Source: an uncultured Gammaproteobacteria bacterium
GTDB lineage: Bacteria > Patescibacteriota > Patescibacteriia > UBA11705 > JABHMO01
Assembly (NCBI GenBank): GCA_964590105.1
Contig: CAZPYM010000002.1
Coordinates: 218,697-282,696, forward strand
Reading direction: 5' to 3'
DNA: 64,000 nt
In this document: positions 10,759 to 54,949 of the stretch, in pieces
How the letters are laid out: each line of letters starts with the position of its first letter
Position numbering within the stretch: position 1 is the first letter of the stretch
Translations under genes and position numbers: made by a program
Notes under the pieces: model-generated
The model's input: only the letters and a program-made list of their open reading frames with translations
Told to the model about the DNA's origin: nothing
The model's database searches: none

Positions 10759-10787
10759 TTGACAATAAATAATATTCGTGCTATTAT
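10759..10787 (+). promoter_or_regulatory. sigma70-like promoter: TTGACA, 17-nt spacer, TATTAT.
   Basis: ttgacaataaataatattcgtgctattat. Confidence 0.45.
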
Positions 10788-10825
10788 TAACAGTTATTTG
10801 TAAATTGACAACCAGGAGGGAAGAA

Positions 10826-12217
10826 ATGAAAAAGGTGGCTGTTTGGCTACTTGCTTGTGCGTTTATCGTCGCAGTCGCGGCGGTCATTGGATTCATAGTT
10901 TTATTTTTTCTTGGTCGCAGGGCAACCGAGCAGGAGTGGTCGGACAAGACGGCGCGTGAACGCACGCCCGCTGAAATTCGCGGTCTGATGCAGTCTATGG
11001 TGGAGACGCCGCAAAGTGTGCCGAATTTTGTCCCACAGTCGATGTTGGACGATGATGTTTGTTCGGCGGCTGTTTGCAATGCCGTGAACTTTACCGTCGG
11101 CCGAGAACTGCTGAAGTGCGGCGCGGCTTGGCGGTTTCCGAAAACGAATGAGCAGGCGATCTCCCGCACGGTTTTTGATCGGTCAAAAGATTTTTCAATC
11201 GTAACAAATTCCGACGGCAAGCGCCGGATTGTGGAGGATTACGATCGGAATTTTTGGCTGACCAGTCTCTTGGATCCGAACAAGCTGTACGTTGCCGGAT
11301 ACCATTACCACGATACTCTTCATGACGAAGAAATTGTGGCGGATGGAACCGGCCTCAACAGCCATCTGGCTTGGCTCTTGCCGTTGAAAGACGGACGGCG
11401 GTGGTGCTATCATCTGGTTCACCGGCCGAACCGGTGGGATGAAAATCCATACCGGGTTGAACCCGTTGACGAACTTCCGGATGAGTTCGATCTGATCTAC
11501 ATCTGGGAGCTGAAAGGCATTGTTCTGCCGGAAGCCGGTGACAAGATGGTGCTTGTAAACAGAAGCCTGCCGTTTTCCGAACTGCGGTTCTGGTTGAACA
11601 AAGGGCCGGCGTTTGCCGAGTACTACCTGGACACCGGACTGGTGTGGTTGCGCAATCAGTTTGGGAAATACGAACAGTTCCCGGTTGTGCAGAAGCTGGA
11701 CAACGGATTCATTGACTTTGGCGTAACCGGCAGGTTATACCACGGCACAGTGCTCGGAGCGTATGAGGGCGAGTATTTGCATGCTCATCTTGAATCGACT
11801 CGCGGGAAGTACGGCCTCGAGTATCAGTGCGTGGAATTTGTTAACCGATTTTATTCGCGTGTGCTCGGCCACCGCAATCTGACACAAACTGGACATGCTG
11901 ATTCGTATTTGTGGGAAGCGAACGAAAAGGGTTTGGTTGCCTACATGAATGGCTCAAAAACCAAACCTCAGGTGCACGACCTGCTGATTTTTGACGGAGG
12001 CGACGGCGACGGCGATCCCGGGCACCTGGCAGTTGTGATTTCGGTCAGTGATTCTGAAATCTGTTTTGTGCAGCAGAATTTCTACCGGAATAACGTGCCC
12101 GTGATCCGCGATTGCCTGCCCCTTGCCAAAATCAAAGGCAATTGGTTTGTTGATGCGGCTGATACGGATTACTTGCCGGTGGCGGGTTGGTCCAGAATCA
12201 AGGAATCGAAGAATTAG
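10826..12217 (+). CDS. membrane-anchored protein with a C-terminal CHAP-like amidase/peptidase domain
   Basis: SD accaggagggaagaaATG and an N-terminal TM. The C-terminal region has CHAP-like Cys...His blocks: EYQCVEFVNRFY ... GHLAVVISVSD. Confidence 0.5.
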   Translation: MKKVAVWLLACAFIVAVAAVIGFIVLFFLGRRATEQEWSDKTARERTPAEIRGLMQSMVETPQSVPNFVPQSMLDDDVCSAAVCNAVNFTVGRELLKCGAAWRFPKTNEQAISRTVFDRSKDFSIVTNSDGKRRIVEDYDRNFWLTSLLDPNKLYVAGYHYHDTLHDEEIVADGTGLNSHLAWLLPLKDGRRWCYHLVHRPNRWDENPYRVEPVDELPDEFDLIYIWELKGIVLPEAGDKMVLVNRSLPFSELRFWLNKGPAFAEYYLDTGLVWLRNQFGKYEQFPVVQKLDNGFIDFGVTGRLYHGTVLGAYEGEYLHAHLESTRGKYGLEYQCVEFVNRFYSRVLGHRNLTQTGHADSYLWEANEKGLVAYMNGSKTKPQVHDLLIFDGGDGDGDPGHLAVVISVSDSEICFVQQNFYRNNVPVIRDCLPLAKIKGNWFVDAADTDYLPVAGWSRIKESKN

Positions 12218-12436: not shown

Positions 12437-12620
12437 CACGGATTACAGATTTGCAGATTTGATGGCGGCAGGACAAGAAGTCACTTGAGGATTTCGTTAA
12501 ATTAGGGTAGAATGTAGATACAAGACGAATTTACGAGTTTTTACAAATATAACAAATAAACGGAGACAAGATTAATTTGTGATATTTGTTATTATTTGTA
12601 AATTTGTTTTACTTGTTAAT

Positions 12621-19849: not shown

Positions 19850-21814
19850 TTATTGGATTAGACCGTCAGTTTCAGCGTTTTGATCCTGTTCAAGTGCAGA
19901 AGTTAAAATATTTTTAGTTTTGATTATCAGGTCGCCGGTAGAAACGTCTTTTGCTGATAGCGTGGTGTTGCCCAGAAGCTTGATTATTTTACCTTTGTCT
20001 GCGGAGAGTGGCGTGACAACAATAGTGAAACTGGCATGGGCTTCCTTGATTGACTCCGGCAGGCGATTGATTTCCCAGCTGACTTTGCGGGTGCTCGGAT
20101 CAAATCTTAGTTCGCCGGCAGTGGTGTTTGTTTCATTCGGCCAGCTGACATATTCAGGTAATTCTGCGCTTATTAATAGATTTTCCACTTCATGCAAGTC
20201 GTTGGAAACATCCCAAAATATTTTTAAGCCGGTTGTCTCTCCTGATTTTAAGGGCAGGGGGCCAGAGCCAATCGGTGTGCCGTCATCAAAATAATAGAGC
20301 GCCTTGGCGCCGACATTGATATCGGTATTTAATATTAATGCTACTTGGCTGCTAACTACCGCTGCGGTCAGGGCGTCGGGTTCAGTGTTCAGTGCTATTT
20401 CAGAATGAGCTTCAATTTTTGTCTGTCCGAGACTTGCCAGATTAACTGTTTCAAATTCTGTCAGCTGTTTGACCGGCAGAGAAAAATTCACAGTTATTTC
20501 TTCACCGGCCTTGAGATTGGCAAGCTTTGGAATTTGCGTTTTGTCCCAGATGATTTGTTTGCCATTGTCGATTTTTTCGATCTTGCCGAAAAAGTCGTCC
20601 TGCAGTTTATTCCAGTCCAGAATATCCATGGGTTGGCTGTTTATTATTGATTTCAGCTGAACATTTTCAAAATCCTGCTGGCCGTTATTTTTCGCGATGA
20701 TGGAAAAAGCCAGATTGTCGCCGAGCACAATATGTTTATTTTCCGTTGTTCCATTAACAATGAGGTAAGTATTGATTGCCTGATCAATAACTTTGACTGT
20801 AAATTTAAATTCCTTGACTACGGAGTATAATTCATCATTGCCGGGCAAAAGGATTTGAGCAGTGAAAATTCGTTCTCTTTCGCTTTCATTGCCAAAGGTT
20901 AAGGATTTTGGAAAAGAGCCTTCAATAGTTATTTCTTTGCTTTCGGAAAGGCCGGGGATGTCGGTTAACAACCAGAGATTGCTGTCTTCGCTTGGTTCTG
21001 GCTGGGCCGATTGAAAAGTAAAAGATTCTGGATATAAAAAGTTTAATTTTATATTTTCAAAGGAAGCCGTCCCTTTGTTTTTTATTTTTGTTTTGAGGTT
21101 CATTTTTTGCCCCAGCGTGATATTTGAAGGAAAGGAATTCACAATTTCAAATTCCGGTTCTTCGAGCAGAATACTGAAGCTGGTTTCTTTAGAAAACTCG
21201 GAATGAAAATTACTTGGCTCAAAAGTCAGGGTAGCTGTTAGTTTTTGTTCTTCGTTAATTGCGTCAATTATTTTGCCGGTTATTATTATTTCGCCTTTGT
21301 CTCCGGCCCCCAGATCGCCCAGTAGCCATTTGTGATTAGAGAGTTCTGGCTCAGCTTTTTCCAAAATAAATCCGTGCGGCTGTTGCACTAGCAAGCGGCT
21401 ATTTAAAAGATCCACAAGCCCTAGATTTTGGTAGGTGATTTTGTAGTCAAAGGTCTGCCCGATCTGAATTTTTTCCGGGGCGACGATTTCCATGGCCAGG
21501 CTTTGATTTTCAAAAGTTTTATTGCCGCCGAAATACAAAAAGCCGCCAAGCGCGGCCAATGAAAAAATAAAAAGCAGGATTATGGAAACAATGAAAAATT
21601 TTTTTCTGCGCTTGCGGCGGTTGATTTCAATCAGATCTTTTAGCGAGTCGTCAGGCGCTTTCGGAGAGTCTGTTGTTTCCAAGACGGCATCTCCCATTTC
21701 TTTGGCTAAATCATCTTCTTCGTATAATTCAAATAAATCCTTAATCGGATCTTCTTTTGGATATTTAATTTTTCGTCTTATGAATTTAGGACTTGAGTTT
21801 TTGGTGTGAGCCAT
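19850..21814 (-). CDS. membrane-anchored large surface protein with repeated beta-rich domains (hypothetical)
   Basis: N-terminal cytoplasmic tail, single TM (FFIVSIILLFIFSLAALGGFLYF), about 560-aa ectodomain. Confidence 0.5.
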   Translation of the reverse strand: MAHTKNSSPKFIRRKIKYPKEDPIKDLFELYEEDDLAKEMGDAVLETTDSPKAPDDSLKDLIEINRRKRRKKFFIVSIILLFIFSLAALGGFLYFGGNKTFENQSLAMEIVAPEKIQIGQTFDYKITYQNLGLVDLLNSRLLVQQPHGFILEKAEPELSNHKWLLGDLGAGDKGEIIITGKIIDAINEEQKLTATLTFEPSNFHSEFSKETSFSILLEEPEFEIVNSFPSNITLGQKMNLKTKIKNKGTASFENIKLNFLYPESFTFQSAQPEPSEDSNLWLLTDIPGLSESKEITIEGSFPKSLTFGNESERERIFTAQILLPGNDELYSVVKEFKFTVKVIDQAINTYLIVNGTTENKHIVLGDNLAFSIIAKNNGQQDFENVQLKSIINSQPMDILDWNKLQDDFFGKIEKIDNGKQIIWDKTQIPKLANLKAGEEITVNFSLPVKQLTEFETVNLASLGQTKIEAHSEIALNTEPDALTAAVVSSQVALILNTDINVGAKALYYFDDGTPIGSGPLPLKSGETTGLKIFWDVSNDLHEVENLLISAELPEYVSWPNETNTTAGELRFDPSTRKVSWEINRLPESIKEAHASFTIVVTPLSADKGKIIKLLGNTTLSAKDVSTGDLIIKTKNILTSALEQDQNAETDGLIQ

Positions 21815-21834: not shown

Positions 21835-24426
21835 TTATTCGTAAACAAAGGCAATAAGTTGGTCTTCAGGCGAGCTGGATTCAAATAATATTTGCCTGTT
21901 GTTGGATATTGCTATGTCGCCAAAAGCCCAGGTTGGCTTTAGGTGTTCAGGAAGATTGATAGTAAGGGAATATTTTGTGTTTTTTTGCCCAGACTGTTTT
22001 TGCAAAAGAAGCGAGTGAAAGCCGCCTTGTTTGTCAGCTGAGAAAAATTTAAATCCGCTGCCGTCATTTGTATTAATTTTAAATGGCAATCTGTATTTCA
22101 GAACTACAGTTGTTTCTTCGCCCGGATCGACCTGGATCCAGTTGCCGAAAACAGTTTTATTAAATTCATTGTTTATATAAGTGCCGGTATCGGGTTCCAC
22201 CCAGACTTCGCCCTGAACCTGATTCAGCATTTCGTCTTCCTGCCAAAAGTCTTCCGGTTTTTCAAATGATTCCGGCAAAATTTCATCGGTAAAGCCTTGC
22301 GCTGATAAAATCTGACTGCCGAGTGGAGTATAAAATCTGGCAAAAGATAAGTTGGATACTTTGCCAAAAGGGTCTGAGAGTTTGCCGGTATGTTTTCTGG
22401 TTAGTGTAACCGTATTTATTATTTCTCCATTATCGTAAATGTCGGAAACAATATCAATCTTTTGTTCAATCAAGCCGTCTGTTTTTCCTCCGCCGATATT
22501 GGTATTGATCACGTCCAAATAATCCTTGGAAGTGTCGAGCAGTTGCCCGGTCCAGCCGTAGGAAGCTATTTTTTCCTGCGCCGCTTCATTGGTAAAGTAG
22601 AGCTGAATGTCGTTTTGAGCAAGGCCAAGTTTTAGCGTTTTGGCGATATTTAACAGCTGTTCTCCGTCAGCGCTGAAAATTTTGTCCAATAATTTTGGCG
22701 CCAGGTCGGAAAGAATTATTTTAGGCTTGTTTTCTGCCGGATTGTTGTATTCAATGCCAATTGACCTTTGCAATTCTTCAATAAAATTATCAGAAGTAAA
22801 TGTTTTATCATAGCCAGGCAAGTCGATCGGGCCGATTATTTGCATGAGCGACGGGATGAGGCTGGCATTGACCGCTATGACGCCGTCAACGGTTGGCCCG
22901 CCGGAATTTTCATAAAACCAAATTGTTTTGGCGGCTGAAGTCGGGAAGTCCGGGAACCAATTGGCGTCCTGCATTTCCCAAAGCGGATTGATCAAGTGCA
23001 GAGGGAACGGTGAAATCCTTTTTTCTAATAATGAGCCTTGCAAGTCATAGGTGCCACCGCCCGGAATTTCAATATTTTTAATTTGTCCGCGGTCGATGTC
23101 TACTAAGGCAAAACTGCCCATAAAGCCGCCGGTCGGACGAGCCTCATTATTATTTTGAAAAACAAATAAATAACGCCGTTTGTAATCAGAGCCCAGAAGC
23201 TGGTTTAATATTTTTGAAAAACTGTTGAATTCTTTGACGTCATTATTTAGCAAAGTAATAATTTCTTTGCCTTTTTCAAATTGTTCTTGTTTTTCCTTGG
23301 GAATGGCTTTGATCCTGACTTTTGCCAGGTCGTCTTCCAGCTGATTAAGCTTCGGAATAATTTCTTCGAGCTTTTCCTGCAAAGAAAATATTTTGTCAGT
23401 CAGCCTAGCCTGGCTGCCATTGGTAAAAATATCAAATAATTGAGCTAGGGTTTGGCCAATGGCCGAGATTTGCTGGCCGGCCTCCAAGAGATACTCGGCG
23501 TCAGCCAAATTAGCCTGATCGGTCGGTAAAATTTTTAGAATCGATTTAATTGAAAGGTCAATTTCAGCAATTTGTTGGCTGGCTTGGGTGAAATTATGAT
23601 TTGCCTGGCTGAAATTCTGCGCGGCGCCGGCAGTATTATTGGCGGCTAATTCCTGGCTGGCGATTTTTAGATCTTCATAAGCAGTTGTTGCATAGCTGAC
23701 TATTTGATCCTGAGATTGTTTTATTTCCTGATAATGGCCGAATACTTTGATCGGCGTAACGATCAAAAGACAAATGGCAGCGTAGGCGATAATTGTCCGA
23801 TGCCAGCGCAAAGGAAGATTTAAATGATAGAAAAATGGAGTTTTGGTAAATTGTTCGTAAAAATCAGTGTCTTTCGGCGCGCCGCTTTTAAATTCAATCT
23901 GATTTTCATATTCAGCTACAATGGTCGGCTCGGCAAAGTGAGTTGTTTCCGGAATTGCAATGGCGGCTGGCGATTCTTCCCGAATCTGAACCGTCGCCTC
24001 CGGTTGGTGTTCGTGTAAATGATGAAAAAACGACAAAACCCGGTGCTTTTCTTGCTTAGCTTTTTTCTTTTTTTCAATGAGAGCGCTCAAATCCAAAACA
24101 TACGGTGAGTGCTCCGCCCTCCTGGCAATACTCTGCACAATAATGCTGGTGTGCTTGGCGGCAGTTTCTTTGGTAATGGCTTCTTTTTCAGGCAGTAGCT
24201 TGGCCAGTTCTTTCATTACAGCTTGTTCCAGTTCTTTATTGGTTTCATTTTTACTTTGGCTACCAAGAATCTGATCAATTTCATGCTGAAGCAGGCCGAT
24301 GGTGAGGTCGTCCTTGGTCGAAGTTTGGATTGGTTTCTTTTTGCTGGTTGGCTTTTTTGTTTTTTTTCGGTCTGAACCAGCTGAAGTTTTTCTTTTTGAT
24401 TTTGTTTTGCTCTTCATATATTGCAT
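21835..24426 (-). CDS. DUF4012-like membrane protein (863 aa)
   Basis: Lys-rich N-terminal tail, TM, and conserved block FVFQNNNEARPTGGFMGSFALVD recalled from the DUF4012 family. Operon partner of 19850-21814. Confidence 0.5.
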   Translation of the reverse strand: MQYMKSKTKSKRKTSAGSDRKKTKKPTSKKKPIQTSTKDDLTIGLLQHEIDQILGSQSKNETNKELEQAVMKELAKLLPEKEAITKETAAKHTSIIVQSIARRAEHSPYVLDLSALIEKKKKAKQEKHRVLSFFHHLHEHQPEATVQIREESPAAIAIPETTHFAEPTIVAEYENQIEFKSGAPKDTDFYEQFTKTPFFYHLNLPLRWHRTIIAYAAICLLIVTPIKVFGHYQEIKQSQDQIVSYATTAYEDLKIASQELAANNTAGAAQNFSQANHNFTQASQQIAEIDLSIKSILKILPTDQANLADAEYLLEAGQQISAIGQTLAQLFDIFTNGSQARLTDKIFSLQEKLEEIIPKLNQLEDDLAKVRIKAIPKEKQEQFEKGKEIITLLNNDVKEFNSFSKILNQLLGSDYKRRYLFVFQNNNEARPTGGFMGSFALVDIDRGQIKNIEIPGGGTYDLQGSLLEKRISPFPLHLINPLWEMQDANWFPDFPTSAAKTIWFYENSGGPTVDGVIAVNASLIPSLMQIIGPIDLPGYDKTFTSDNFIEELQRSIGIEYNNPAENKPKIILSDLAPKLLDKIFSADGEQLLNIAKTLKLGLAQNDIQLYFTNEAAQEKIASYGWTGQLLDTSKDYLDVINTNIGGGKTDGLIEQKIDIVSDIYDNGEIINTVTLTRKHTGKLSDPFGKVSNLSFARFYTPLGSQILSAQGFTDEILPESFEKPEDFWQEDEMLNQVQGEVWVEPDTGTYINNEFNKTVFGNWIQVDPGEETTVVLKYRLPFKINTNDGSGFKFFSADKQGGFHSLLLQKQSGQKNTKYSLTINLPEHLKPTWAFGDIAISNNRQILFESSSPEDQLIAFVYE

Positions 24427-36457: not shown

Positions 36458-36629
36458 TGTAGGAAAGAAGGGGCGACTGACACAAGCTTGTGTCTTTTTT
36501 CTGCCTGCGGACTTTGGATACCGCGCGATACGCCGAGGCGCAAAGGGTCGTGCCGAGGGCTTTCTTAATCCCCACGGCCTCCCTATCGCTTAACAGATCT
36601 TGGACACATTGACTTGTGCCAGCCACCAG

Positions 36630-36703
36630 TGGAGCCAGAAGGAATCGAACCTTCGCCTTCCGCTACGCAAGAACGGCGCTCTGCCGGTCTGAGCTATGGC
36701 CCC
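36630..36703 (-). tRNA. tRNA-Ala (anticodon TGC)
   Basis: Cloverleaf GGGGCCATAGCTCAG...CTTGCGT...GGTTCGATTCC...TGGCTCCA with the G3:U70 identity pair; CCA is not encoded. Confidence 0.85.
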
Positions 36704-36970
36704 AGTTGAGAAAAAGAATTTTGGTAAAGCCCGCATATCTCCCGTTTAGCAGGATCAAGGAGAATATGCGGTTTTGCCGGCGAGGACTTTGCATCTGGTA
36801 ATGAACGGGTTCAACTGCCATGCGTCGGAAGTGCAGTCGGGAAGTAGTTCTTTCCGGCCCCGCGATAGCGCTTCCGTGGCACGCACAGTCACCGCCGCCA
36901 TTGCTGGTCGTATTGCCGGAGTTAGCGAAGCTCCGGTAATCAACCCTTCAGCCTCCTGCAAGGCCAATCG

Positions 36971-37043
36971 TGCGCCCAAAGGGATTCGAACCCTTGACCC
37001 TCGGATTAAAAGTCCGATGCTCTACCAACTGAGCTACGGGCGC
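36971..37043 (-). tRNA. tRNA-Lys (anticodon TTT)
   Basis: GCGCCCGTAGCTCAGTTGGTAGAGCATCGGACTTTTAATCCGAGGGTCAAGGGTTCGAATCCCTTTGGGCGCA. Confidence 0.9.
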
Positions 37044-41294: not shown

Positions 41295-41613
41295 TAAATT
41301 GGTTCTGAACAAGCAGAACCGTTGCTCTTTGCCTTTTGGCGGAGAGAGGAAAGTCCGGACTTTCAGTCATTTTTTGACGCGGGTAGCAGGTAATTCCTGT
41401 CAATCGTGAGATAGAGGTGCGAGCAGAGACGCCTGGCAAAGTAATTTGTCAGGAACCCCTCGGGGTTAGTCTTGGTGGAAACATCAAGAGTGAAACGGCT
41501 AAACCCTTGCCTGAAAGCAAACCCAAGTTTGGTAGGGTGCTTGAGTCGGAGAGTGATCTTCGGCCCAGATAGATAACGGCTAAAACAGAATCCGGCTTAC
41601 TCGCTTGTTCAGG
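41295..41613 (+). ncRNA. rnpB: RNase P RNA (bacterial type A)
   Basis: GAGGAAAGTCCGGACTT and ACAGAATCCGGCTTAC conserved blocks. The 5' ctgaacaagc pairs with the 3' gcttgttcag (P1). Confidence 0.85.
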
Positions 41614-41659
41614 ACTTTTTTATTATCACGAATTGCCCGAATTGGCGCGAAAAAATATA

Positions 41660-47418: not shown

Positions 47419-48153
47419 ATGGAAGAAAAAGAGCGCGGCTCGATTTTGATTTCAAAGAAGTGGTACAAGCGCTGGTGGGCGATAGTTGGGTTTTGTTTTG
47501 TCGGAATTATAATTTTATTTTCTCCTCTCTATATATATCAGGTTTACAAAGTCTATCATCAGATGAAAGCCGGCGGTTATTTGACAGTTGAAGATTTAAG
47601 CAGGGAAGCGCCGTACAGCATGGATTATATTGTCAATTCAATGTCTCCATGGAAAGGAAATGAAGCGGCTGAAATTCAAATAGTTGAGTTTGGTGATTTT
47701 AATTGCTCTCGTTGCCTGCAAGCTTTTAACATTATGCGAGAACTTGAAGGCAAGTATCATGACAAAATAAAATTTTATTGGCGCAATTATCCTGTGGTTA
47801 GCGGTAGCTCAATCGAGATGGCCAAAGGCGGAGTTTGCGCGCATCAGCAGGGCAAATTTTGGCTGTATCATGATCGCATGTTCCAGCTTCAGGGTCAGAT
47901 AAACGAAGAAAATTTGGCGGAAACTGTTCAAACTTTCGGATTGGACAAAAAAAAGTTTGAAGATTGTTTGGTCAATGATTTAACGTTGGCTCAAATAAAA
48001 AAAGATTATTTCGCCGCTAAAGAAGGCGAAGTCAGCGGCACGCCCACATTTTTTATCAATGGTTATAAATTGCAAGGCGTGGTGCCGTTAACTAATTGGA
48101 TAGACGTAGTGGAAAAATTTTTAGCGATTTATGAAAACAATGCTGGAAATTAG
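47419..48153 (+). CDS. membrane-anchored DsbA-like thiol:disulfide oxidoreductase
   Basis: CSRC (CxxC) within a thioredoxin fold; the 3' end overlaps the porG start. Confidence 0.6.
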   Translation: MEEKERGSILISKKWYKRWWAIVGFCFVGIIILFSPLYIYQVYKVYHQMKAGGYLTVEDLSREAPYSMDYIVNSMSPWKGNEAAEIQIVEFGDFNCSRCLQAFNIMRELEGKYHDKIKFYWRNYPVVSGSSIEMAKGGVCAHQQGKFWLYHDRMFQLQGQINEENLAETVQTFGLDKKKFEDCLVNDLTLAQIKKDYFAAKEGEVSGTPTFFINGYKLQGVVPLTNWIDVVEKFLAIYENNAGN

Positions 48154-48682
48154 AATTCATGGCCGCGGCGGGCAGGGCTCGGTCACGGCGGCAGAATTGA
48201 TCGCGGTCGCCGCTTTTTACGATGGGAAGTATTCGCAGGCTTTTCCTAATTTCGGCGTGGAAAGGCGAGGTGCGCCGGTCATGGCTTACTGCCGTATTTC
48301 TTTGCAGCCGATTCATTTGCGCGAGCAGATTTATTTCCCTGATTATGTGATTGTTCAGGATCCGAGTTTGATTAATGATGACCGCCAAGTCCTTCTGGGG
48401 CTGGAAAAACAAGCATCAATTTTAATTAATACGGAAAAAACAAGTTGGCCGCAGATTAAAAATAAAAATATTGTTATAGTGCCGGCTACGAAAATTGCGC
48501 TGGAAAAGATTGGCAAACCTTTTATTAATACTGCCATTGTCGGCGCCTTTGCCGCCATGAGCGGAGCTGTCAGCCTGGAATCATTGAAAAAAGCCGTTGC
48601 GGAAAGATTCAGTGGACCGCTTGGTGAAACCAATATCGCGGCCTTGGAAGCGGCTTTTGAATTTATCAAAAAGGGCAGATGA
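48131..48682 (+). CDS. porG: 2-oxoacid:ferredoxin oxidoreductase gamma subunit
   Basis: IRIHGRGGQG motif. Confidence 0.85.
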   Translation: MKTMLEIRIHGRGGQGSVTAAELIAVAAFYDGKYSQAFPNFGVERRGAPVMAYCRISLQPIHLREQIYFPDYVIVQDPSLINDDRQVLLGLEKQASILINTEKTSWPQIKNKNIVIVPATKIALEKIGKPFINTAIVGAFAAMSGAVSLESLKKAVAERFSGPLGETNIAALEAAFEFIKKGR

Positions 48683-48806: not shown

Positions 48807-49079
48807 ATGAAGATAAACATCGCCGTTCAACCCGGTACATCAAAGAAAAATAAAACAGGCAACTGGCGCACATTTGTCCCAATAGTTGATCATGACAGAT
48901 GTATCGCCTGTGGCGCTTGCGCGCGCGTTTGTCCAGAGGGTTGTATTTTTCCGGTTGGCGACAAGGCTCTGCAGGGCAAGGTTTTTTATGAAAAAGATTT
49001 GGATTATTGCAAGGGTTGTGGTATTTGCGCGGAGGAATGTCCTGTTAAGTGTATTAAAATGGAACTTGAAGAAAAATAA
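48807..49079 (+). CDS. porD: PFOR delta subunit (2x[4Fe-4S] ferredoxin)
   Basis: CIACGACARVCP and CKGCGICAEECP. Confidence 0.85.
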   Translation: MKINIAVQPGTSKKNKTGNWRTFVPIVDHDRCIACGACARVCPEGCIFPVGDKALQGKVFYEKDLDYCKGCGICAEECPVKCIKMELEEK

Positions 49080-49726
49080 TAACACGAATAAAACACGAAT
49101 AGCTCGGGAACACGCGAATGACACGAATTAGATGGATGAAATTTAAGGCAAAGGCTCCTTGAGAAAATGCGAATGAATAAATCATGGTGGAAATAATATA
49201 TAAAGAATTATCATATTAAGTAAACGGTATTTTATTTGACGTTCAAAATGAATTGGGGCGATATAGAAGTCGTCGGCAATATGTGGATAAACTGGAACAA
49301 AAAATAATTGCTTTTGGATTAAAATGCGCCAGGGAAATGCCATTGCCGCCGTCGTTCGAAGGTGAAAAAGAAAAAAGAAATATACCTGATTTGGTTGTGG
49401 CGGAAGAAGAAAAAAAGATGGTTATCGAAGTTAAAGTAAAAAGACTTTTAACAAAGGGGGATTATTATCAACTGCAACGCTATTTAGCGAGTGGAAATTT
49501 TCGTCTTGGTATATTGGTCAATTTTCGCCAGCACTATTTGAAACCAAAACGCATTATAAATGCCGAATATAAATCTTGGAAATCCAGTTCAATGTAGTCT
49601 AATCTTTAATTGAATTCGTGTCATTTGCGTGGTAGCCCATTCGTGTTATAGCCCATTCGCTTTTCATATTATATCGGCCATTTAATTCGTGTCCTTCGCG
49701 TGGTGGCCCATTCGTGTTAATTCTAT
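49080..49726. mobile_element. miniature selfish-element-like unit: terminal inverted repeats (AATGACACGAATT / ACACGAAT family) flanking a small PD-(D/E)xK gene, filling the porD-porA gap.
   Basis: Left: taacacgaataaaacacgaat...cgcgaatgacacgaatt. Right: gaattcgtgtcatttgcg...gcccattcgtgtta (x2)...aattcgtgtcc...cccattcgtgttaa. Confidence 0.45.
49253..49597 (+). CDS. GxxExxY-like / PDDEXK_3-family PD-(D/E)xK nuclease-fold protein (114 aa); N-terminal half appears shortened.
   Basis: IPDLVVAEEEKKMVIEVKVKRLLTKGDYYQLQRYLASGNFRLGILVNF resembles the D...E-x-K core and C-terminal LGLLINF block of GxxExxY proteins. Confidence 0.5.
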   Translation: MGRYRSRRQYVDKLEQKIIAFGLKCAREMPLPPSFEGEKEKRNIPDLVVAEEEKKMVIEVKVKRLLTKGDYYQLQRYLASGNFRLGILVNFRQHYLKPKRIINAEYKSWKSSSM

Positions 49727-50872
49727 ATGAAGTATTGTATTGAAGGCTCAAACGCCGTAGCCCGAACAGTAAATCTATGCCGGCCCGGAGTAGTCAGTGC
49801 TTATCCGATTACTCCGCAAACGCATATAGTCGAAGACTTGTCCAAACTCAGATCTGACGGACAAGCTGATTTTGAATATGTGCGCGCGGAAAGCGAATTC
49901 AGCGCGGCCTCGATCGTGCTCGGCGCCAGCGCCGCCGGCGCGCGTACTTATACCGCGACTTGTTCGCAGGGTTTGCTTTTGATGTCCGAAGTAATATTTA
50001 CAATTGCCGGCATGCGCCTGCCCGTTGTTTTGACCTGCGCCAATCGAGCGGTTTCGGCGCCGATCAATATTTGGAATGATCAGCAGGACGCGATGACTGT
50101 GCGCGACAGCGGCTGGATAATGTTTTTTGCGGAAAATAATCAGGAAGTTGTTGATTTTCATATCTTGGCATTCAAAATCGCCGAACAAACCAAAATACCG
50201 GTCATGGTCAATATGGATGGTTTTGTTTTGACGCACACTTTTGAGCCGGTGGAAATTCCGGAGCAGGCAATGGTGGATTCTTATTTGCCGGCCTATTGTC
50301 CTGAACCGGGCCAGTTTCTGGATCCTGAAAACCCGGTCAGTCTCGGCTGTTTTGCCACGCCGGCTGATTACATGGAAATTCGTCAGGATTTGGCCAGTGA
50401 TTTGGAGGTTTCAAAAAAAATTATAAAAAAAGAATTTGATAGTTATAGAAAAATATTCAAGCGCGGCGATGACGGACTGGTGGAATATTACGGCAGCAAA
50501 AACGCGGCAGTAGTTTTCATGGCCATGGGTTCGGTTGTCGGCACGATTCGCGCGTCAGTTGACGAAATAAACAACGCTGGCGGCAGCGCTGCAGTTCTAA
50601 AAATTAAATGTTTTCGGCCGTTTCCAACCTTGGAAATTATCAAGGCCTTGTCGGGCGCGAAGAATGTCGCGGTCATTGACAAGAGCATCTCGCTCGGCAA
50701 TGAAGGAATTCTGGCCAGTGAGGTCAAGGCGGCAATGCGGGATCCAAAAATAAAAATCCAATCTTTTGTTGCCGGTCTCGGTGGGCGTGATATTACCAGG
50801 AAGATGATTGCCGCTATTTATAAACAAGCGCAAAAGGGGAACAGTGGACTGGTGTTTGTGGGGAAATGCTGA
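49727..50872 (+). CDS. porA: PFOR alpha subunit
   Basis: 381-aa POR domain I/VI pattern; directly follows the inserted element. Confidence 0.85.
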   Translation: MKYCIEGSNAVARTVNLCRPGVVSAYPITPQTHIVEDLSKLRSDGQADFEYVRAESEFSAASIVLGASAAGARTYTATCSQGLLLMSEVIFTIAGMRLPVVLTCANRAVSAPINIWNDQQDAMTVRDSGWIMFFAENNQEVVDFHILAFKIAEQTKIPVMVNMDGFVLTHTFEPVEIPEQAMVDSYLPAYCPEPGQFLDPENPVSLGCFATPADYMEIRQDLASDLEVSKKIIKKEFDSYRKIFKRGDDGLVEYYGSKNAAVVFMAMGSVVGTIRASVDEINNAGGSAAVLKIKCFRPFPTLEIIKALSGAKNVAVIDKSISLGNEGILASEVKAAMRDPKIKIQSFVAGLGGRDITRKMIAAIYKQAQKGNSGLVFVGKC

Positions 50873-51147
50873 TTTCCTTTGGCAGGAATGGATTCCTCGA
50901 CTTCGCTCCGCTCCGCTCGGAATGACACGGCAGGGGGGGGCAGCATTATTCGAAATGACAAAGAGAGAAGGCAGAGCATTTTCCTTCTTGTCATTTCGAC
51001 TGGAGTGAGCCGAACTCGTCGCGAGAATAAATATCAAATCTGGGCGAACGGAATGGAGAAATCTAGAAACTATTTACGGTTTGAATAATACAGCGTGATT
51101 CTTGCTATATTTAAAGTATATTTCCATCATACATATTTCAAAATTTT

Positions 51148-54027
51148 ATGACTAAATTCACCAAACTATTTATTTTATCAACAGTGGTTTTAATATTACT
51201 GCAATCTTTTAATTTAATATATTTTGTTTCAGTTCCGACTGCTCTGGCCTCTGCGAAACAGTGCGACTGTGCAGGAACTTCATATCCGCCGGCTGATCCG
51301 TGCACTGCCGCATGCGTAGGTAAGCTTCCTTTGGTTACGGACGTGTGCGTTTGCGATGACGGAACAGTAGAAGATATAAAATTGCCGACTGATACTTGTG
51401 CTGTCTTGTGCCCGGTGGCGCCCCCGCCTACGCCTAAGCCTACGTCCCCTGCTCCTTCAGGAACACCAAAATCCACTCCGTCGGCGGTTCCAAAGGCTGG
51501 CTTTAATTTGGAAGAAGCGAAGATCAATATTCAGTTCGGCGATCTGCCTACGAGTTTTACGGCCGTGGATGAGGCGCCGTGCAAATGCACCCCCGCGGAA
51601 AAAGCAAAAGATGCAAAATATTGCGAGGATTATGAAAAGAAAATGTGCATCCGTATTCCCTGGGTTGCTCAATATCTGAATGCGGTTTATCGCTATGGCG
51701 TGACGCTCGGATCATTGCTTGCTGTATTAATGTTGATGATCGGCGGGGTGATGTACATGATGGGCGGACTGAATCAGACCATGATTTCCAAAGCCAAGAG
51801 CATGATGTCCGGCGCGGTTTTAGGTTTAATCTTATTGCTCGGCACTTATGTTTTGTTGAATACTATTAACCCGAATTTAATAAAATTGGAACCGATAAAG
51901 ATTGAGGTAGTCAGAGAGAAGGGGATTTCTTCCTTTACTTTTTGTAATGAGGTGCCAGCAGCTAAGTACAAGGTGACTGATAATACGTGTGGCCAGGAAG
52001 GTTCGTATGAAATAAAAGATAAAAGTATTGACGAAGAACCTGGCAAGTGTATTGGCTCTATATGTAAGCCATCGGCAGATGGGCACAAACAATGGTGTTT
52101 GCCGTCACCAGAAGACAAAGCGATGAAAGAAAATAAAGTTACTTGTATTGACGCCGCGGTTTGGGGATATCTGAAGTATGATGATGGCAGGTTTTTGGAT
52201 TCGATAGGTTTATATGCTTTGGGAGGATATAGTGATGCGGATTGTGTAGCATTAGATAGTGACGCTACTTCCACCTGCGCCGACCCGATTAAAGATAACC
52301 CAGGAGACGGCGATAAAGTATATTATATTAGATGGAGTGATATAAAGGCCGCTGTGGCGAGTAAAAAATCGAGTGCAAAAGATTCATATATGCTGATGAT
52401 TGAACTTAATGATACCGGGGCGTCCAACGCCGCTGTCACCAATTCCAAAATTGTTGTTGCTACCCAGGCGGGCATGAGTTGGATTGGCTTTGACGGAACA
52501 ATTGACGATGAGTATTATGTCGCTCTAAATCCGGAAAATCCTATTAGCACAGAAAAAGATAATGAGGCTTATAATGGTATATGGATAGAGCCTTGCGACA
52601 CTACTGTTGTTTGGATGAGTCCCAAGGGGGAGGGCTGGATGTCCGGCGGACTCCCAGCGGAAAAAGGGAAAAAGTGGAAAACAATGAGGGCTTATGATGT
52701 TGAAACTAGTGGTATTAGATTAGATATTGATTCAAAAGATTTTCAAGAGGACGCGGATATTGATTGTTCTTTAGCTGATAAAATGTTCGGTGCTTCATTG
52801 AAGGTTGGAGCAATATGTGGAAGTAATAAGGAGTGTCTTAGCGATGATTGTGAACTGGAGCAGGGATCAAAGAGATGTGAATGTAATGAAGATGAAGATT
52901 GCAAAAATGAAGTTGCTCCGGGAGATCCGCAAAAAGACAAGTTAGTTTGCGCCACCTCTTGGAATATTTGGAATAGTTGTATTGTGGGTAAGGCAATTGG
53001 CGCATCTTGTTCGGACAATAGCCAGTGCAACAGCGGTAGTTGTTCCGGCGGAAAGTGCGAATGTTCAAAAAAAGAGGATTGTGCATATCAGCCTTATAGT
53101 ACAGCACCGGATTTTTTCAAGAAGAAAAAGATAGACGGAGTTTTGTATGGTTATGCCTGCATTAAAAATATATTTTCGGCAAATGAGTGTAAGTATAAGA
53201 GAGAGCAAGGTGAAGCCTGTGATAAGGCTGAGCAATGTATCAGCAATAATTGTGTGGGTGGATCTTGTATGTGCGATGACGATGCTGACTGTCCAGAAGG
53301 ATCATATTGCGAAACCGTGACCGGTGCTTGTATGTTGCAGCATCTTAATTTGGAAATATGTGACGAGGGAAATAACAAATCTTGTTATAAGGGCATGGAT
53401 TGCGAGGAAGACCACTGGTATGGTGAGGGAACTACAGAAACGCGATGCGAATGTAACAATAATGAAGATTGTGGGCCGGATGCCGTTTGTATTGACATTG
53501 AGGATGGTTGCGGTTGGAATTATTGTCTTGCGAACGACGTGGGTGCGCCTGGTGTGCCATATGGCTATAGCTCTGTTGGTGATTCAACTGTAGTTGCGTC
53601 GCAAAAATATTGGGGACTTTGTGATGCTGATTCCGATTGCGCCGGTACAGCTTTGTCGCCGGGTGATTGTATAACAGATTGGGGAAAGAATAATTGTAAT
53701 GCTTGCAAGAGCACTGATGGAACAGCTTTGATAGGGGGAAAATGTCCTAGTTCTGATAAAGATGCTTGTGGCTATAAGCTTTTTTGTACAGATGAGTGGA
53801 GCACAAATATTTGTGCTCCCGCGTCAGCTATCGCCTGCGGCATCAACGATAGTTTGTGCGTTGGTGGTGGATGGAAAAAGGGAACTTGCGAGGGAACCCT
53901 TTGCGATTGTGGTGGCGATGATGACTGTTCGGCTGGTTATCTGTGTGCAAATAATACGTCCGGTGAGTATAACGGCAACGATATGTGCATCCCTGATTCA
54001 TACAAAGATATTGCTGATAACCTTTAA
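51148..54027 (+). CDS. secreted 959-aa cysteine-rich protein with an embedded T4SS-pilin-like (PF18895-type) transmembrane hairpin
   Basis: Signal peptide. IGGVMYMMGGLNQTMISKAKSMMSGAVLGLILLLGTYVLLNTINPNLI matches the GG..YM.GGN...AK...IGL...IVNxI pilin pattern. About 720 aa of CxxxxC/CxSxxC modules follow. Confidence 0.6.
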   Translation: MTKFTKLFILSTVVLILLQSFNLIYFVSVPTALASAKQCDCAGTSYPPADPCTAACVGKLPLVTDVCVCDDGTVEDIKLPTDTCAVLCPVAPPPTPKPTSPAPSGTPKSTPSAVPKAGFNLEEAKINIQFGDLPTSFTAVDEAPCKCTPAEKAKDAKYCEDYEKKMCIRIPWVAQYLNAVYRYGVTLGSLLAVLMLMIGGVMYMMGGLNQTMISKAKSMMSGAVLGLILLLGTYVLLNTINPNLIKLEPIKIEVVREKGISSFTFCNEVPAAKYKVTDNTCGQEGSYEIKDKSIDEEPGKCIGSICKPSADGHKQWCLPSPEDKAMKENKVTCIDAAVWGYLKYDDGRFLDSIGLYALGGYSDADCVALDSDATSTCADPIKDNPGDGDKVYYIRWSDIKAAVASKKSSAKDSYMLMIELNDTGASNAAVTNSKIVVATQAGMSWIGFDGTIDDEYYVALNPENPISTEKDNEAYNGIWIEPCDTTVVWMSPKGEGWMSGGLPAEKGKKWKTMRAYDVETSGIRLDIDSKDFQEDADIDCSLADKMFGASLKVGAICGSNKECLSDDCELEQGSKRCECNEDEDCKNEVAPGDPQKDKLVCATSWNIWNSCIVGKAIGASCSDNSQCNSGSCSGGKCECSKKEDCAYQPYSTAPDFFKKKKIDGVLYGYACIKNIFSANECKYKREQGEACDKAEQCISNNCVGGSCMCDDDADCPEGSYCETVTGACMLQHLNLEICDEGNNKSCYKGMDCEEDHWYGEGTTETRCECNNNEDCGPDAVCIDIEDGCGWNYCLANDVGAPGVPYGYSSVGDSTVVASQKYWGLCDADSDCAGTALSPGDCITDWGKNNCNACKSTDGTALIGGKCPSSDKDACGYKLFCTDEWSTNICAPASAIACGINDSLCVGGGWKKGTCEGTLCDCGGDDDCSAGYLCANNTSGEYNGNDMCIPDSYKDIADNL

Positions 54028-54028
54028 G

Positions 54029-54949
54029 ATGTTTATGCCATACCAAATGCCATTTAATCATTTACTAAATCCCGGACACTCGGCCTGCGCAGGTTGTGGT
54101 GAGATTTTGGCTATGCGGCATGTGCTCGCGGCGGCGGGGGGAAATACGATTATTGCCAATGCCACCGGTTGCAGTGAAGTGACAACTACTCGCTACCCGA
54201 TGAGCGCATTCAAAGTTCCATGGATTCACGCCAACTTTGAAAACGCCGCGGCAGTCGCGTCCGGTGTTTTAGCGGCTTTAAACTTTAAGCGTCAATTAAC
54301 CAATCAACCAATTAACCAATCAACCAATATCCTTGCCTGGGGAGGCGATGGCGCTACTTTTGACATTGGATTTGGTTTAATCTCTGGGTCTTGGTACCGG
54401 CGGGAAAATATTTTATATGTTTGTTTTGACAATGAAGCTTATGAAAACACGGGGATTCAAGCCAGCGGAGCCACTCCGCTTGGCGCCAATACCACGACTA
54501 CTCCGTCGGGCAAAGTTTCATTTGGCAATCAGCTGAAAAAAAAGGACATGGTGAAAATCGCGCTGGCGCATGAATGCGTTTATGTTGCCACGGCCACAGT
54601 CGGCAATGTGATTGACATCGGGAACAAAGTAAAAAAAGCTTTGCAAATTCCCGGTCCCAAATATTTGCAAATACTCTGCACCTGCGTGCCGGGCTGGCAT
54701 ACTGATTCAAAGGATACTATTACTATAGCCAAACTCGCTCAACAAACCGGGATTTATCCGATTGTTGAATATGAGAACGGCAAACTAACGAACGCAGTTA
54801 AATGTCCGAAACCGCGACCAAAAGTTGAAGAATATTTCAAATTGCAAGGACGCTATAAACATTTATTCAAGTCGGATGAAGGCAAAGCGGAGATAGAATT
54901 AATTCAAAAAATCGCGGATGAGAATGTGGAGAAATACGATTTGCAATAA
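54029..54949 (+). CDS. porB: PFOR beta subunit (TPP-binding)
   Basis: GHSACAGCGE and GGDGATFDIG TPP motifs. ATG lies 2 nt after the upstream stop. Confidence 0.85.
   Translation: MFMPYQMPFNHLLNPGHSACAGCGEILAMRHVLAAAGGNTIIANATGCSEVTTTRYPMSAFKVPWIHANFENAAAVASGVLAALNFKRQLTNQPINQSTNILAWGGDGATFDIGFGLISGSWYRRENILYVCFDNEAYENTGIQASGATPLGANTTTTPSGKVSFGNQLKKKDMVKIALAHECVYVATATVGNVIDIGNKVKKALQIPGPKYLQILCTCVPGWHTDSKDTITIAKLAQQTGIYPIVEYENGKLTNAVKCPKPRPKVEEYFKLQGRYKHLFKSDEGKAEIELIQKIADENVEKYDLQ

What the first reader, a model, noticed from the sequence alone, without database searches (positions are those of the whole stretch)
51148..54027. 959-aa secreted Cys-rich protein with a T4SS-pilin-like TM hairpin, wedged between porA and porB
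The four-subunit PFOR genes are normally contiguous (porG-porD-porA-porB). Here a huge gene sits between alpha and beta, and its stop is 2 nt before the porB ATG. The product has a signal peptide, a short Cys-rich N-domain with a Pro/Thr linker, and then a two-helix hairpin IGGVMYMMGGLNQTMISKAKSMMSGAVLGLILLLGTYVLLNTINPNLI. The hairpin closely matches the conjugative T4SS pilin (TrbC/VirB2-like, PF18895-type) pattern seen in Gram-positives and CPR. After it come about 720 aa of repeated CxxxxCxSxxC/CxC modules with about 90 cysteines. A pilin-like anchor carrying a giant disulfide-rich ectodomain, co-transcribed with a central-metabolism operon, is unusual. It may be a surface adhesin for episymbiotic attachment.
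Basis: partly seen in the sequence, partly recalled or inferred. Interest (0 to 1): 0.7.

Follow-up and report, generated by a model that had tools for sequence, protein, structure and literature searches.

The report
Pilin-hairpin-anchored cysteine-rich surface protein in PFOR operon
A real 959-residue, cysteine-rich surface protein, held in the membrane by a two-helix hairpin related to conjugation (VirB2-type) pilins, has sat between two subunit genes of a core metabolic enzyme throughout a clade of ultra-small (CPR) bacteria; its anchor belongs to a very large family that usually carries cell-wall-cutting enzymes.

Summary
ORF 51148-54027(+) encodes 959 aa with 72 cysteines (7.5% against a 1.1% background), not about 90. 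It lies between porA and porB, 1 nt before porB's first ATG. Only the last ~414 aa are Cys modules; a ~300-aa conserved beta-rich domain comes first.

The hairpin hits Pfam PF18895 (T4SS_pilin) below threshold (17.7-21.6 bits; cutoff 26.6). Homology is nevertheless well supported through relatives: 82 of 104 hairpin-only relatives found with the family profile match PF18895, several above cutoff, and some lie next to VirB4/TrsD.

X is not a canonical pilin. It is far too large, and neither the window nor any orthologous locus holds T4SS genes. Twelve distinct relatives' loci from independent assemblies show porA-X-porB (one cut inside X) within SecG-dsbA-porG-porD-porA-X-porB...uvrA, so it is lineage-fixed and not a mis-assembly. 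X and por can each occur without the other (L028, L031).

In relatives the same hairpin anchors peptidoglycan hydrolases, so it acts as a modular anchor. X's ectodomain has no significant structural match.

Best reading: a hairpin-anchored, disulfide-rich surface protein, probably oxidised by the co-operonic DsbA, with a binding or adhesive role (inferred). New variant of a known kind; moderate interest.

The parts
47419..48153 (+). dsbA-like membrane-anchored thiol:disulfide oxidoreductase. It has an N-terminal TM segment and a CSRC active-site motif. Its last 23 nt overlap porG.
   Evidence: Pfam Thioredoxin_4 76.5 bits and DSBA 55.5 bits. Upstream of porG in every locus that reaches that far, with or without X; the start/stop overlap recurs in L005, L007, L014 and L027.
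48131..48682 (+). porG (PFOR gamma subunit)
   Evidence: Pfam POR, E=4.7e-40
48807..49079 (+). porD (PFOR delta subunit, 2x[4Fe-4S] ferredoxin)
   Evidence: Pfam Fer4 families
49253..49597 (+). GxxExxY / PD-(D/E)XK_3 small gene inserted between porD and porA. The occupant of this slot varies among relatives.
   Evidence: PF13366 E=5.6e-13; TIGR04256 46.3 bits. Relatives carry a 23S_rRNA_IVP gene, nothing, or other genes at this position.
49727..50872 (+). porA (PFOR alpha subunit)
   Evidence: POR_N E=9e-74 and PFOR_II E=1.2e-25
50873..51147 (+). porA-X spacer of 275 nt. It is much shorter in most relatives (5-16 nt in five of them, 101-173 nt in four others). It is GC-rich, holds a perfect 12-nt inverted repeat, and has no T-tract terminator.
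   Evidence: fold z=-0.96, not significant; no Rfam match
51148..51252 (+). X aa 1-35: signal peptide (MTKFTK, then a hydrophobic core, then ALA|SA)
   Evidence: Hydropathy. An AxA-type end is conserved in homologs. Cleavage is inferred; no predictor was available.
51253..51507 (+). X aa 36-120: extension found only in this protein. It holds two CxC-x10/14-C-x3-C mini-modules (8 Cys) and a Pro/Thr-rich linker.
   Evidence: absent from all homologs
51508..51693 (+). X aa 121-182: conserved pre-hairpin ecto-segment, with a conserved Cys pair and the IPW-A-Y..Y-YG motif
   Evidence: Invariant columns. The segment is also present in pilin-sized relatives.
51694..51882 (+). X aa 183-245: PF18895-type two-helix TM hairpin. 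The loop is LNQTMISKAKS and the exit motif is LLNTINPNL.
   Evidence: PF18895 17.7 bits on the whole protein and 21.6 bits on the isolated segment, against a cutoff of 26.6. Hydropathy. 82 of 104 relatives match PF18895.
51883..52782 (+). X aa 246-545: family-defining middle ectodomain. It is mostly beta, has 6 invariant Cys in its first part, and N421 and D453 are nearly invariant.
52783..54027 (+). X aa 546-959 plus stop: tail of small disulfide modules (50 Cys). The number of modules varies among orthologs.
   Evidence: motifs. AF2 pLDDT 79.7 but pTM 0.48, as for beads on a string. Foldseek gave only weak Draxin/Dickkopf/knottin-like matches, E>=0.6. Ortholog lengths run from 517 to 959 aa.
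54029..54949 (+). porB (PFOR beta subunit). The first ATG is at 54029. The ATG at 54035 matches the ortholog N-termini (MPYQMPF...).
   Evidence: TPP_enzyme_C E=8.8e-18. 71-79% identity to relatives' porB.

Best explanation
X is a membrane-anchored, extracytoplasmic, disulfide-rich surface protein. It belongs to an ortholog group confined to a Parcubacteria/Falkowbacteria clade of Patescibacteria (CPR).

Shown:
- Its anchor is a PF18895-type (VirB2-like) two-helix hairpin preceded by a signal peptide.
- With the Lys-bearing loop placed in the cytoplasm, both the N-terminal segment and the 715-aa C-terminal part face outward.
- All 72 Cys lie in these predicted outside regions. The count is even in each region (8, 4, 10, 50), which fits about 36 disulfides.
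- The same hairpin module occurs in thousands of Patescibacterial proteins, from pilin-sized ones (163-206 aa) to fusions with peptidoglycan hydrolases. Some lie beside VirB4/TrsD and some directly behind a dsbA. It is therefore a modular anchor derived from, or shared with, the T4SS pilin family.
- The gene has been fixed between porA and porB, inside a dsbA-porG-porD-porA-X-porB transcription-unit-like block, across lineages whose porB has diverged to 54-61% identity.

Inferred:
- X is exported by Sec and oxidatively folded by the co-operonic DsbA. It projects a beta-sandwich-containing domain and a variable string of cystine-knot-like modules from the cell surface.
- It acts as a binding or adhesive (host- or envelope-contact) protein. 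It evolves fast (31-46% identity among orthologs, against 53-94% for the Por subunits) and varies in module number, as surface-interaction proteins typically do.
- Its place in the por operon most likely gives constitutive co-expression. It need not imply a biochemical link to PFOR, because X and por can each be lost separately.
For: - ORF, composition and topology.
- Direct PF18895 hits, below threshold, in 4 of 5 family members.
- Exhaustive HMMER search: 15,615 cluster representatives at E<=1e-3. About 45-50 align over the full length. The rest match only the hairpin module.
- 82 of 104 hairpin-only relatives match PF18895. Their ectodomains include SLT, Amidase_2, M15_4/VanY, NlpC/P60 and C39-like.
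- Explicit scores above the cutoff, including the paralogs L023 (hairpin+NlpC/P60), L018 (hairpin+SLT) and L026.
- VirB4 and TrsD upstream of paralogs in L020, L023 and L026.
- DsbA directly upstream of paralog arrays in L017, L018, L019, L021 and L022.
- Synteny porA-X-porB in 12 distinct relatives' loci (L001/L010, L004/L011, L005, L007, L012 [cut inside X], L013, L014, L015, L027, L029, L032, and L009, which is the window's own sequence on another contig).
- Short gaps to porB (an 11-nt overlap up to 25 nt): same calls.
- No terminator between porA and porB in the window.
- Independent loss: L028 has por without X; L031 has X-X-uvrA without porB.
- Relative divergence rates.
- Structure models and fold searches.
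- Literature background on Patescibacterial VirB2-like pilins and on essential hydrolases next to virB4: PMC12102498 and PMC12857230.
Against: - X itself scores below Pfam's gathering threshold for PF18895, so direct membership is not established.
- Signal-peptide cleavage and topology come from sequence inspection and hydropathy, not from a dedicated predictor or an experiment.
- DsbA stays upstream of porG even where X is absent (L028, L030), so DsbA is not dedicated to X.
- Only 64 kb of the genome is visible, so a T4SS elsewhere in the genome cannot be excluded.
Confidence: 0.6

Rival explanations
1. X is a genuine T4SS pilus subunit. It could be a minor or tip pilin, or a polymerising pilin that displays its ectodomain on the pilus surface. 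It would then be assembled by a VirB4-type machine encoded elsewhere in the genome and would mediate host attachment.
For: - The hairpin is homologous to PF18895, and hairpin-bearing paralogs lie next to VirB4/TrsD.
- VirB2-like pilins and pilin arrays are widespread in Patescibacteria and essential in one species (PMC12102498; PMC12857230).
- No PrgB-type adhesin was found in Patescibacteria (PMC12102498), which leaves that role open.
- Pilin-sized relatives share X's pre-hairpin segment and hairpin.
Against: - X is 5-10 times the size of a VirB2 pilin. A 715-aa domain on every subunit is hard to fit into a helical pilus lattice (inference from established VirB2/TraA pilus structures).
- No T4SS gene lies in the 64-kb window or in any of the 12 orthologous loci.
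- The same hairpin anchors cell-wall hydrolases that need only be held at the membrane, so the hairpin does not in itself imply polymerisation.
- X scores below the PF18895 cutoff, and PF04956 (TrbC/VirB2) does not hit at all.
Confidence: 0.15
2. X is a cryptic envelope enzyme, for example a cell-wall or glycan hydrolase or a transferase. It would be like its hydrolase-bearing paralogs, with the middle domain as the catalytic part.
For: - Many paralogs with the same anchor carry peptidoglycan hydrolase domains.
- N421 and D453 are nearly invariant, and D422 and D454 are invariant among close orthologs.
Against: - X matches no Pfam, NCBIfam or PHROG enzyme family.
- There is no PDB sequence match.
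Confidence: 0.1
3. X works together with PFOR and DsbA in redox chemistry. For example, it could be an extracytoplasmic thiol/disulfide buffer, an oxidant shield for an oxygen-sensitive metabolism, or a metal- or sulfide-binding protein whose expression is tied to ferredoxin-linked pyruvate oxidation.
For: - The dsbA-porGDA-X-porB block is conserved, with overlapping or nearly abutting genes.
- X has 72 Cys.
- dsbA remains tied to por even without X.
Against: - X and por are lost independently (L028, L031).
- X is predicted to be outside the cell, whereas PFOR is cytoplasmic.
- The Cys spacing and the even counts fit structural disulfide knots.
- DsbA also precedes hairpin-anchored hydrolase arrays that have no por genes.
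Confidence: 0.05
4. The arrangement is an artefact: a mis-assembly, a chimeric contig, or a decaying pseudogene.
For: A 275-nt GC-rich spacer that is far longer than in most relatives precedes the gene.
Against: - The identical protein occurs on five contigs from several sources, including one of 594 kb.
- Twelve orthologous loci from independent assemblies share the slot.
- The ORF is intact, and conserved Cys and motif columns indicate purifying selection.
Confidence: 0.01

Closest known systems
Pfam PF18895 T4SS_pilin (VirB2-like pilins of Patescibacteria and monoderm conjugation systems; PMC12102498)
   Same: Both have a signal peptide followed by two hydrophobic helices joined by a short basic loop. 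X gives direct sub-threshold HMM hits. Relatives retrieved with X's profile are genuine PF18895 members, and some are encoded next to VirB4/TrsD.
   Different: X is 959 aa and carries a 715-aa ectodomain after the hairpin. It scores below the gathering threshold. It is encoded in a PFOR operon with no T4SS genes nearby. It also has a conserved Cys-pair pre-hairpin segment and an LLNTINPNL exit motif.
Membrane-anchored VirB1-type cell-wall hydrolases of Gram-positive T4SSs (PrgK, TraG of pIP501, CwlT; named from established knowledge, not tested here), and the peptidase and lysozyme genes downstream of virB4 in Ca. Southlakia epibionticum (PMC12102498)
   Same: X's paralogs are exactly this kind of protein. 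They have an N-terminal membrane anchor and an SLT, NlpC/P60, amidase or M15 domain, sometimes beside VirB4. X shares their anchor and topology.
   Different: X has no recognisable hydrolase domain. Its ectodomain is a beta-rich domain followed by cystine-knot-like modules. In X and its paralogs the anchor is a pilin-type hairpin.
Dickkopf N-terminal / colipase-fold and knottin-like cystine-rich modules (PF04706, DUF7107)
   Same: The tail modules are small and disulfide-dense, and AF2 models them with high local confidence. Ortholog P0002 gives sub-threshold Dickkopf_N (22.6 bits) and DUF7107 (20.6 bits) hits. Foldseek's weak top hits are Draxin, Dkk and knottin toxins.
   Different: X itself gives no Pfam hit, and the structural matches are not significant (E>=0.6). 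The resemblance is probably convergent and generic to small disulfide-rich folds.
Four-subunit pyruvate:ferredoxin oxidoreductase operon (porGDAB)
   Same: All four subunits are present and intact, with the expected domains and normal conservation.
   Different: In this clade the operon is preceded by an overlapping dsbA and interrupted twice. A variable small gene lies between porD and porA, and X lies between porA and porB.

Membership tests
Pfam PF18895 T4SS_pilin | HMM score at or above the curated gathering threshold (26.6 bits) | tested here: not met
   X scores 17.7 bits as a whole protein and 21.6 bits for the isolated aa 141-271. Orthologs score 23.5, 20.0 and 13.8 bits, and one has no hit. 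The L029 ortholog has a 'weak' hit on record.
Pfam PF18895 T4SS_pilin | Homology to genuine members, shown through intermediate sequences | tested here: met
   Relatives found with the X-family profile at E about 1e-26 to 1e-41 match PF18895 in 82 of 104 cases, best E 1.8e-25. Explicit scores above the cutoff are 28.5, 38.7, 56.4, 27.5, 34.6 and 28.5 bits.
VirB2/TrbC-type conjugative pilin (functional class) | Signal peptide followed by two hydrophobic helices joined by a short basic loop | tested here: met
   Hydropathy and sequence inspection show the signal peptide at aa 1-35, TM helices at 183-209 and 219-243, and a loop with K215 and K217. No dedicated signal-peptide or TM predictor was available.
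VirB2/TrbC-type conjugative pilin (functional class) | Small size (mature protein of roughly 70-130 aa) with no large extra domain | tested here: not met
   X is 959 aa, with 715 aa after the hairpin and 147 aa between the signal peptide and the hairpin.
VirB2/TrbC-type conjugative pilin (functional class) | Encoded in a T4SS locus, near virB4, virB3 or virB6 | tested here: not met
   There is no VirB4 and no further hairpin gene in the 64-kb window, and none in 12 orthologous loci. The rest of the genome is not visible.
VirB2/TrbC-type conjugative pilin (functional class) | Polymerises into an extracellular pilus | not testable with these tools
   This needs cryo-EM/ET or biochemical isolation.
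Pfam PF04956 TrbC/VirB2 | HMM match | tested here: not met
   No hit at E<=0.1 for X or at E<=1 for the orthologs.
X ortholog group (defined here) | Signal peptide, Cys-pair pre-hairpin with IPW..Y..YG, hairpin, NPNL exit, middle domain with 6 invariant Cys and near-invariant Asn/Asp, and a Cys-module tail | tested here: met
   Alignments A1, A2 and A3. About 45-50 full-length cluster representatives were found in 1.84 billion proteins.
X ortholog group (defined here) | Gene located between porA and porB in the SecG-dsbA-por...uvrA block | tested here: met
   This holds for the window and for 12 distinct relatives' loci (one cut inside X). The one exception is L031, which has X-X-uvrA without porB.
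Dickkopf_N / colipase-fold cystine modules | Pfam HMM match, or a significant structural match | tested here: not met
   X has no Pfam hit. P0002 scores 22.6 bits against a cutoff of 25. Foldseek's best E is 0.61.
DsbA-like thiol:disulfide oxidoreductase (neighbour gene 47419-48153) | Thioredoxin/DSBA fold HMM above threshold, with a CxxC motif | tested here: met
   PF13462 scores 76.5 bits and PF01323 scores 55.5 bits. The CSRC motif and the N-terminal TM segment are visible in the sequence.
Phage holin/endolysin module (considered for the hairpin-hydrolase relatives) | Match of the hairpin to a holin family | tested here: not met
   PHROGs gave no hit for X, for its hairpin or for pilin-sized relatives. 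Only the hydrolase domains of the paralogs hit phage lysins.

The most novel reading that the evidence does not exclude
Patescibacteria have turned the VirB2-type pilin hairpin into a general display module. On this reading X is a host-contact adhesin mounted on, or at the tip of, the T4SS-related surface structure, filling the adhesin role that surveys did not find in these bacteria. Its hard-wiring, together with dsbA, into the PFOR operon would couple production of the attachment apparatus to central energy metabolism.
Probability: 0.12. Interest if true: 0.75.

Novelty: new variant of a known kind. Interest (0 to 1): 0.45.

Why it matters
Patescibacteria (CPR) make up a large share of bacterial diversity and appear to live attached to host cells. 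Their T4SS and pilin arrays are essential in the one species tested, yet what they do is unknown (PMC12102498, PMC11665869, PMC12857230).

This finding shows that the 'T4SS pilin' hairpin is not only a pilin. It is a modular anchor found in thousands of proteins that carry cell-wall hydrolases or, as here, large disulfide-rich ectodomains. That changes how PF18895 hits should be read in CPR genomes: a hit does not by itself mean a pilus subunit.

It also defines a conserved, fast-evolving surface-protein family that could be tested as a candidate host-contact factor.

The conserved embedding of two exported-protein genes (dsbA and X) in a cytoplasmic PFOR operon is a clear example of operon architecture in streamlined genomes. 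It should not be read as a functional pathway without further evidence.

Tried and rejected
- **porB divergence (my error).** In one search I queried porB from 54030, which is out of frame. That gave about 35% identity and suggested an oddly divergent porB. The correct frame (54029/54035) gives 71-79%, so I retracted the idea.
- **Metagenome scan.** I used porB-probe and ortholog context look-ups instead.
- **AFDB50 fold library.** It was unavailable.
- **The spacer as an RNA element or terminator.** There was no Rfam hit, the fold was not significant at z=-0.96, there was no T-tract terminator, and the motif is not repeated in the window.
- **PDB sequence search** with the family profile found nothing.
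- **Holin/endolysin origin of the hairpin.** PHROGs gave no hit.
- **A 170-aa ORF in the porA-porB slot of L030** was tested as a possible short pilin. It has no hairpin.
- **NCBIfam** gave nothing for X. The paralog hairpins gave only weak hits (17-19 bits; cutoff 40) to the mycoplasma ICE 'pilin-like conjugal transfer protein'.


Full report
**1. The observation**

The ORF at 51148-54027 on the + strand is real: ATG to TAA, 959 codons. It lies between porA (49727-50872; POR_N E=9e-74, PFOR_II E=1e-25) and porB (TPP_enzyme_C E=9e-18). The stop codon is at 54025-54027. The first porB ATG is at 54029, a 1-nt gap. A second ATG at 54035 matches the N-termini of the orthologs (MPYQMPF...).

The protein has 72 cysteines, not about 90. 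That is 7.5%, against 1.08% in 34 other ORFs of the window (binomial P about 1e-36).

Hydropathy shows an N-terminal hydrophobic segment (aa 7-34) ending in ALA|SA, and two TM helices at about aa 183-209 and 219-243. The loop between them is LNQTMISKAKS. No cysteine lies in the signal peptide or the hairpin. The predicted outside regions hold 8, 4, 10 and 50 Cys, all even numbers.

The operon is interrupted a second time. A GxxExxY/PD-(D/E)XK_3 gene sits between porD and porA. A membrane-anchored DsbA-like gene with a CSRC motif overlaps the start of porG by 23 nt.

**2. The arrangement is lineage-fixed, not an accident**

The identical protein occurs on five contigs from several archives, one of them 594 kb long.

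Every homolog found by word search (P0002-P0005) is encoded between porA and porB. The surrounding block is the same each time: RNase J - SBP_bac_5 - SecG - dsbA - porG - porD - (variable small gene) - porA - X - porB - ... - uvrA.

A scan of one genome per GTDB species found further orthologs in the same slot. These come from Parcubacteria, Patescibacteria and Candidatus Falkowbacteria MAGs (L010-L015).

I then used porB homologs as probes. X is present where porB is 67% and 61% identical (L027, 810 aa with 54 Cys; L029, 825 aa with 39 Cys). It is absent in L028 (65%; porA and porB abut, and dsbA is still upstream). In L030 (Buchananbacteria) the slot holds an unrelated 170-aa ORF. L032 again shows porA-X-porB.

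L031 carries two tandem X-like genes followed directly by uvrA, with no porB.

Gaps between X and porB range from an 11-nt overlap to 25 nt. Gaps between porA and X are 5-16 nt in five relatives and 101-173 nt in four others. The window's 275-nt spacer is the longest seen, has no terminator-like site, and matches no Rfam family.

These results exclude mis-assembly. X is an old resident of this operon and is very probably co-transcribed with it. But X and por can each be lost without the other, which argues against an obligate biochemical link.

**3. The hairpin**

- **Direct test.** Pfam PF18895 (T4SS_pilin) hits X at aa 175-231 with 17.7 bits, or 21.6 bits on the isolated segment. The curated cutoff is 26.6. 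Three of four orthologs also hit below threshold, at 23.5, 20.0 and 13.8 bits. PF04956 (TrbC/VirB2) does not hit.
- **Family size.** An exhaustive HMMER search with the family profile against 1.84 billion cluster representatives found 15,615 proteins at E<=1e-3, 4,865 at E<=1e-10 and 75 at E<=1e-30. About 45-50 align over the full length. The rest align only over the pre-hairpin and hairpin module, and most of those are 300-600 aa long.
- **Link through relatives.** Of 104 hairpin-only relatives, 82 match PF18895 (best E 1.8e-25). Their other domains are mostly peptidoglycan hydrolases: SLT in 9, Peptidase_C39_2 in 6, Amidase_2 in 6, Peptidase_M15_4/VanY in 5, NlpC/P60 in 2, and glucosaminidase in 1. 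Individual scans gave scores above the cutoff: P0112 38.7, P0057 56.4 (four tandem hairpins plus SLT), L018 34.6 (plus SLT), L023 27.5 (plus NlpC/P60), and L026 and P0094 28.5 each.
- **Pilin-sized relatives.** Proteins of 163-206 aa have the same signal peptide, Cys-pair pre-hairpin segment, hairpin and 'TINPxLV' exit, with only a short tail.
- **Genomic context of paralogs.** In L020, L023 and L026 the hairpin genes follow a VirB4-type ATPase (P-loop_TraG E=2e-27). L023 also has a TrsD-like gene. In L017, L018, L019, L021 and L022 a dsbA homolog lies directly upstream of arrays of one to four hairpin genes.
- **Holin test.** PHROGs gave no holin match.

So the hairpin is homologous to the Patescibacterial VirB2-like pilin family described in PMC12102498. 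That family, however, acts as a modular membrane anchor for extracytoplasmic domains. The hairpin-hydrolase paralogs fit the 'peptidase and lysozyme homologues immediately downstream of virB4' reported as essential in Ca. Southlakia epibionticum (PMC12102498).

**4. X is not a canonical pilin**

X is 959 aa long. There is no VirB4 and no second hairpin gene in the 64-kb window. The window's large ORFs are housekeeping genes: IF-2, LeuRS, glycosyltransferases, UbiA, a radical-SAM enzyme, RNase J and UvrA. None of the orthologous loci holds T4SS genes either.

**5. The ectodomain**

The alignment of 41 orthologs shows a conserved middle domain (aa 246-545). It has six invariant cysteines in its first 90 residues, and N421 and D453 are nearly invariant.

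The tail (aa 546-959) holds repeated C-x5-C-x4-C-x(3-10)-C-x-C-x5-C modules. It models with high local confidence but low pTM (79.7 and 0.48), as expected for beads on a string. Its resemblance to Draxin/Dickkopf/knottin folds is weak, with E>=0.6. Ortholog P0002 has sub-threshold Dickkopf_N and DUF7107 hits.

Tail length and Cys number vary widely among orthologs, from 517 to 959 aa and from 19 to 72 Cys. X is 31-46% identical among orthologs. PorA is 53-81%, PorB 53-90% and PorD 76-94%.

The N-terminal Cys/Pro-Thr extension (aa 36-120) is unique to the window's protein.

**6. Mechanism**

Shown: the architecture, homology of the anchor, conserved operon position, association of the wider family with dsbA and with VirB4, and the lack of any enzyme signature.

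Inferred:
- X is exported by Sec and its signal peptide is cleaved.
- The hairpin inserts with its basic loop in the cytoplasm, so both flanking parts are outside the cell.
- The co-operonic DsbA oxidises about 36 disulfides.
- The result is a rigid, protease-resistant surface projection with a binding or adhesive function.
- Residence in the por operon provides constitutive co-expression.

The rivals are a true pilus subunit or tip pilin, a cryptic enzyme, a redox partner of PFOR, and an artefact. They are weighed in the structured fields.

**7. Comparison with known families, and novelty**

The closest known family is PF18895, the Patescibacterial VirB2-like pilins. X shares the hairpin but fails the score, size and context criteria.

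The papers I could search describe small pilins and pilin arrays (PMC12102498, PMC12857230, PMC11665869). They do not describe hairpin-anchored large ectodomains or the por-operon ortholog group.

I rate it a new variant of a known kind, of moderate interest. The practical lesson is that a PF18895 hit in a CPR genome does not by itself indicate a pilus subunit.

Noticed in passing
window 12579-15449 (+): The leucyl-tRNA synthetase (956 aa) carries a NUDIX domain (PF00293, E=7e-11) inserted at aa 420-512, after the editing domain. In relative L028, the LeuRS has abhydrolase / Ser_hydrolase hits on record in the same gene.
   Followed up: no
window 49253-49597 (+); L001 6217-6585; L005 6370-6729; L028 4410-4760; L030 2124-3872: The porD-porA spacer is an insertion hotspot. 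The window has a GxxExxY/PDDEXK_3 gene there. L001, L005 and L006 have a 23S_rRNA_IVP (PF05635) gene. L004 and L007 have nothing. L028 has an unknown 116-aa ORF, and L030 has a 582-aa alpha/beta-hydrolase.
   Followed up: partly
window 47419-48153 / 48131-48682; L005, L007, L014, L027: The dsbA stop overlaps the porG start by 23 nt, and the start/stop overlap recurs in several relatives. dsbA stays upstream of porG even where X is absent (L028, L030). Why an exported oxidoreductase is coupled to a cytoplasmic PFOR operon is unexplained.
   Followed up: partly
L017, L018, L019, L021, L022 (about 1-1.5 kb upstream of the match at 6001): A dsbA homolog lies directly upstream of arrays of one to four PF18895-hairpin genes, several of them fused to peptidoglycan hydrolases, in loci with no por genes. 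This is a recurrent association between dsbA and hairpin proteins.
   Followed up: partly
P0057 (618 aa): This protein has four tandem PF18895 hairpin modules (eight predicted TM helices) followed by an SLT lytic transglycosylase domain.
   Followed up: no
L031 1-2898: Two tandem X-like genes are followed directly by uvrA, with no porB. The upstream copy, cut by the contig end, ends with the same 'YNGND-C-P' terminal module as the window's X.
   Followed up: partly
window 50873-51147: The GC-rich 275-nt porA-X spacer is far longer than in most relatives. It has a perfect 12-nt inverted repeat (50950-50961 / 50988-50999) nested in a 30-nt imperfect one. It has no terminator tail and no Rfam match, and it is not repeated elsewhere in the window.
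   Followed up: yes
window 41306-41615 (+); 36629-36703 (-); 36970-37043 (-): RNase P RNA (class A, 125 bits), tRNA-Ala(TGC) and tRNA-Lys(TTT).
   Followed up: no
window 10778-12217 (+); 21835-24426 (-); 19850-21814 (-): Other envelope or surface genes in the window: a 479-aa CHAP-domain protein lying in a local high-GC stretch (52% GC at 11-12 kb), an 863-aa DUF4012 protein, and a 654-aa DUF11/CARDB protein.
   Followed up: no
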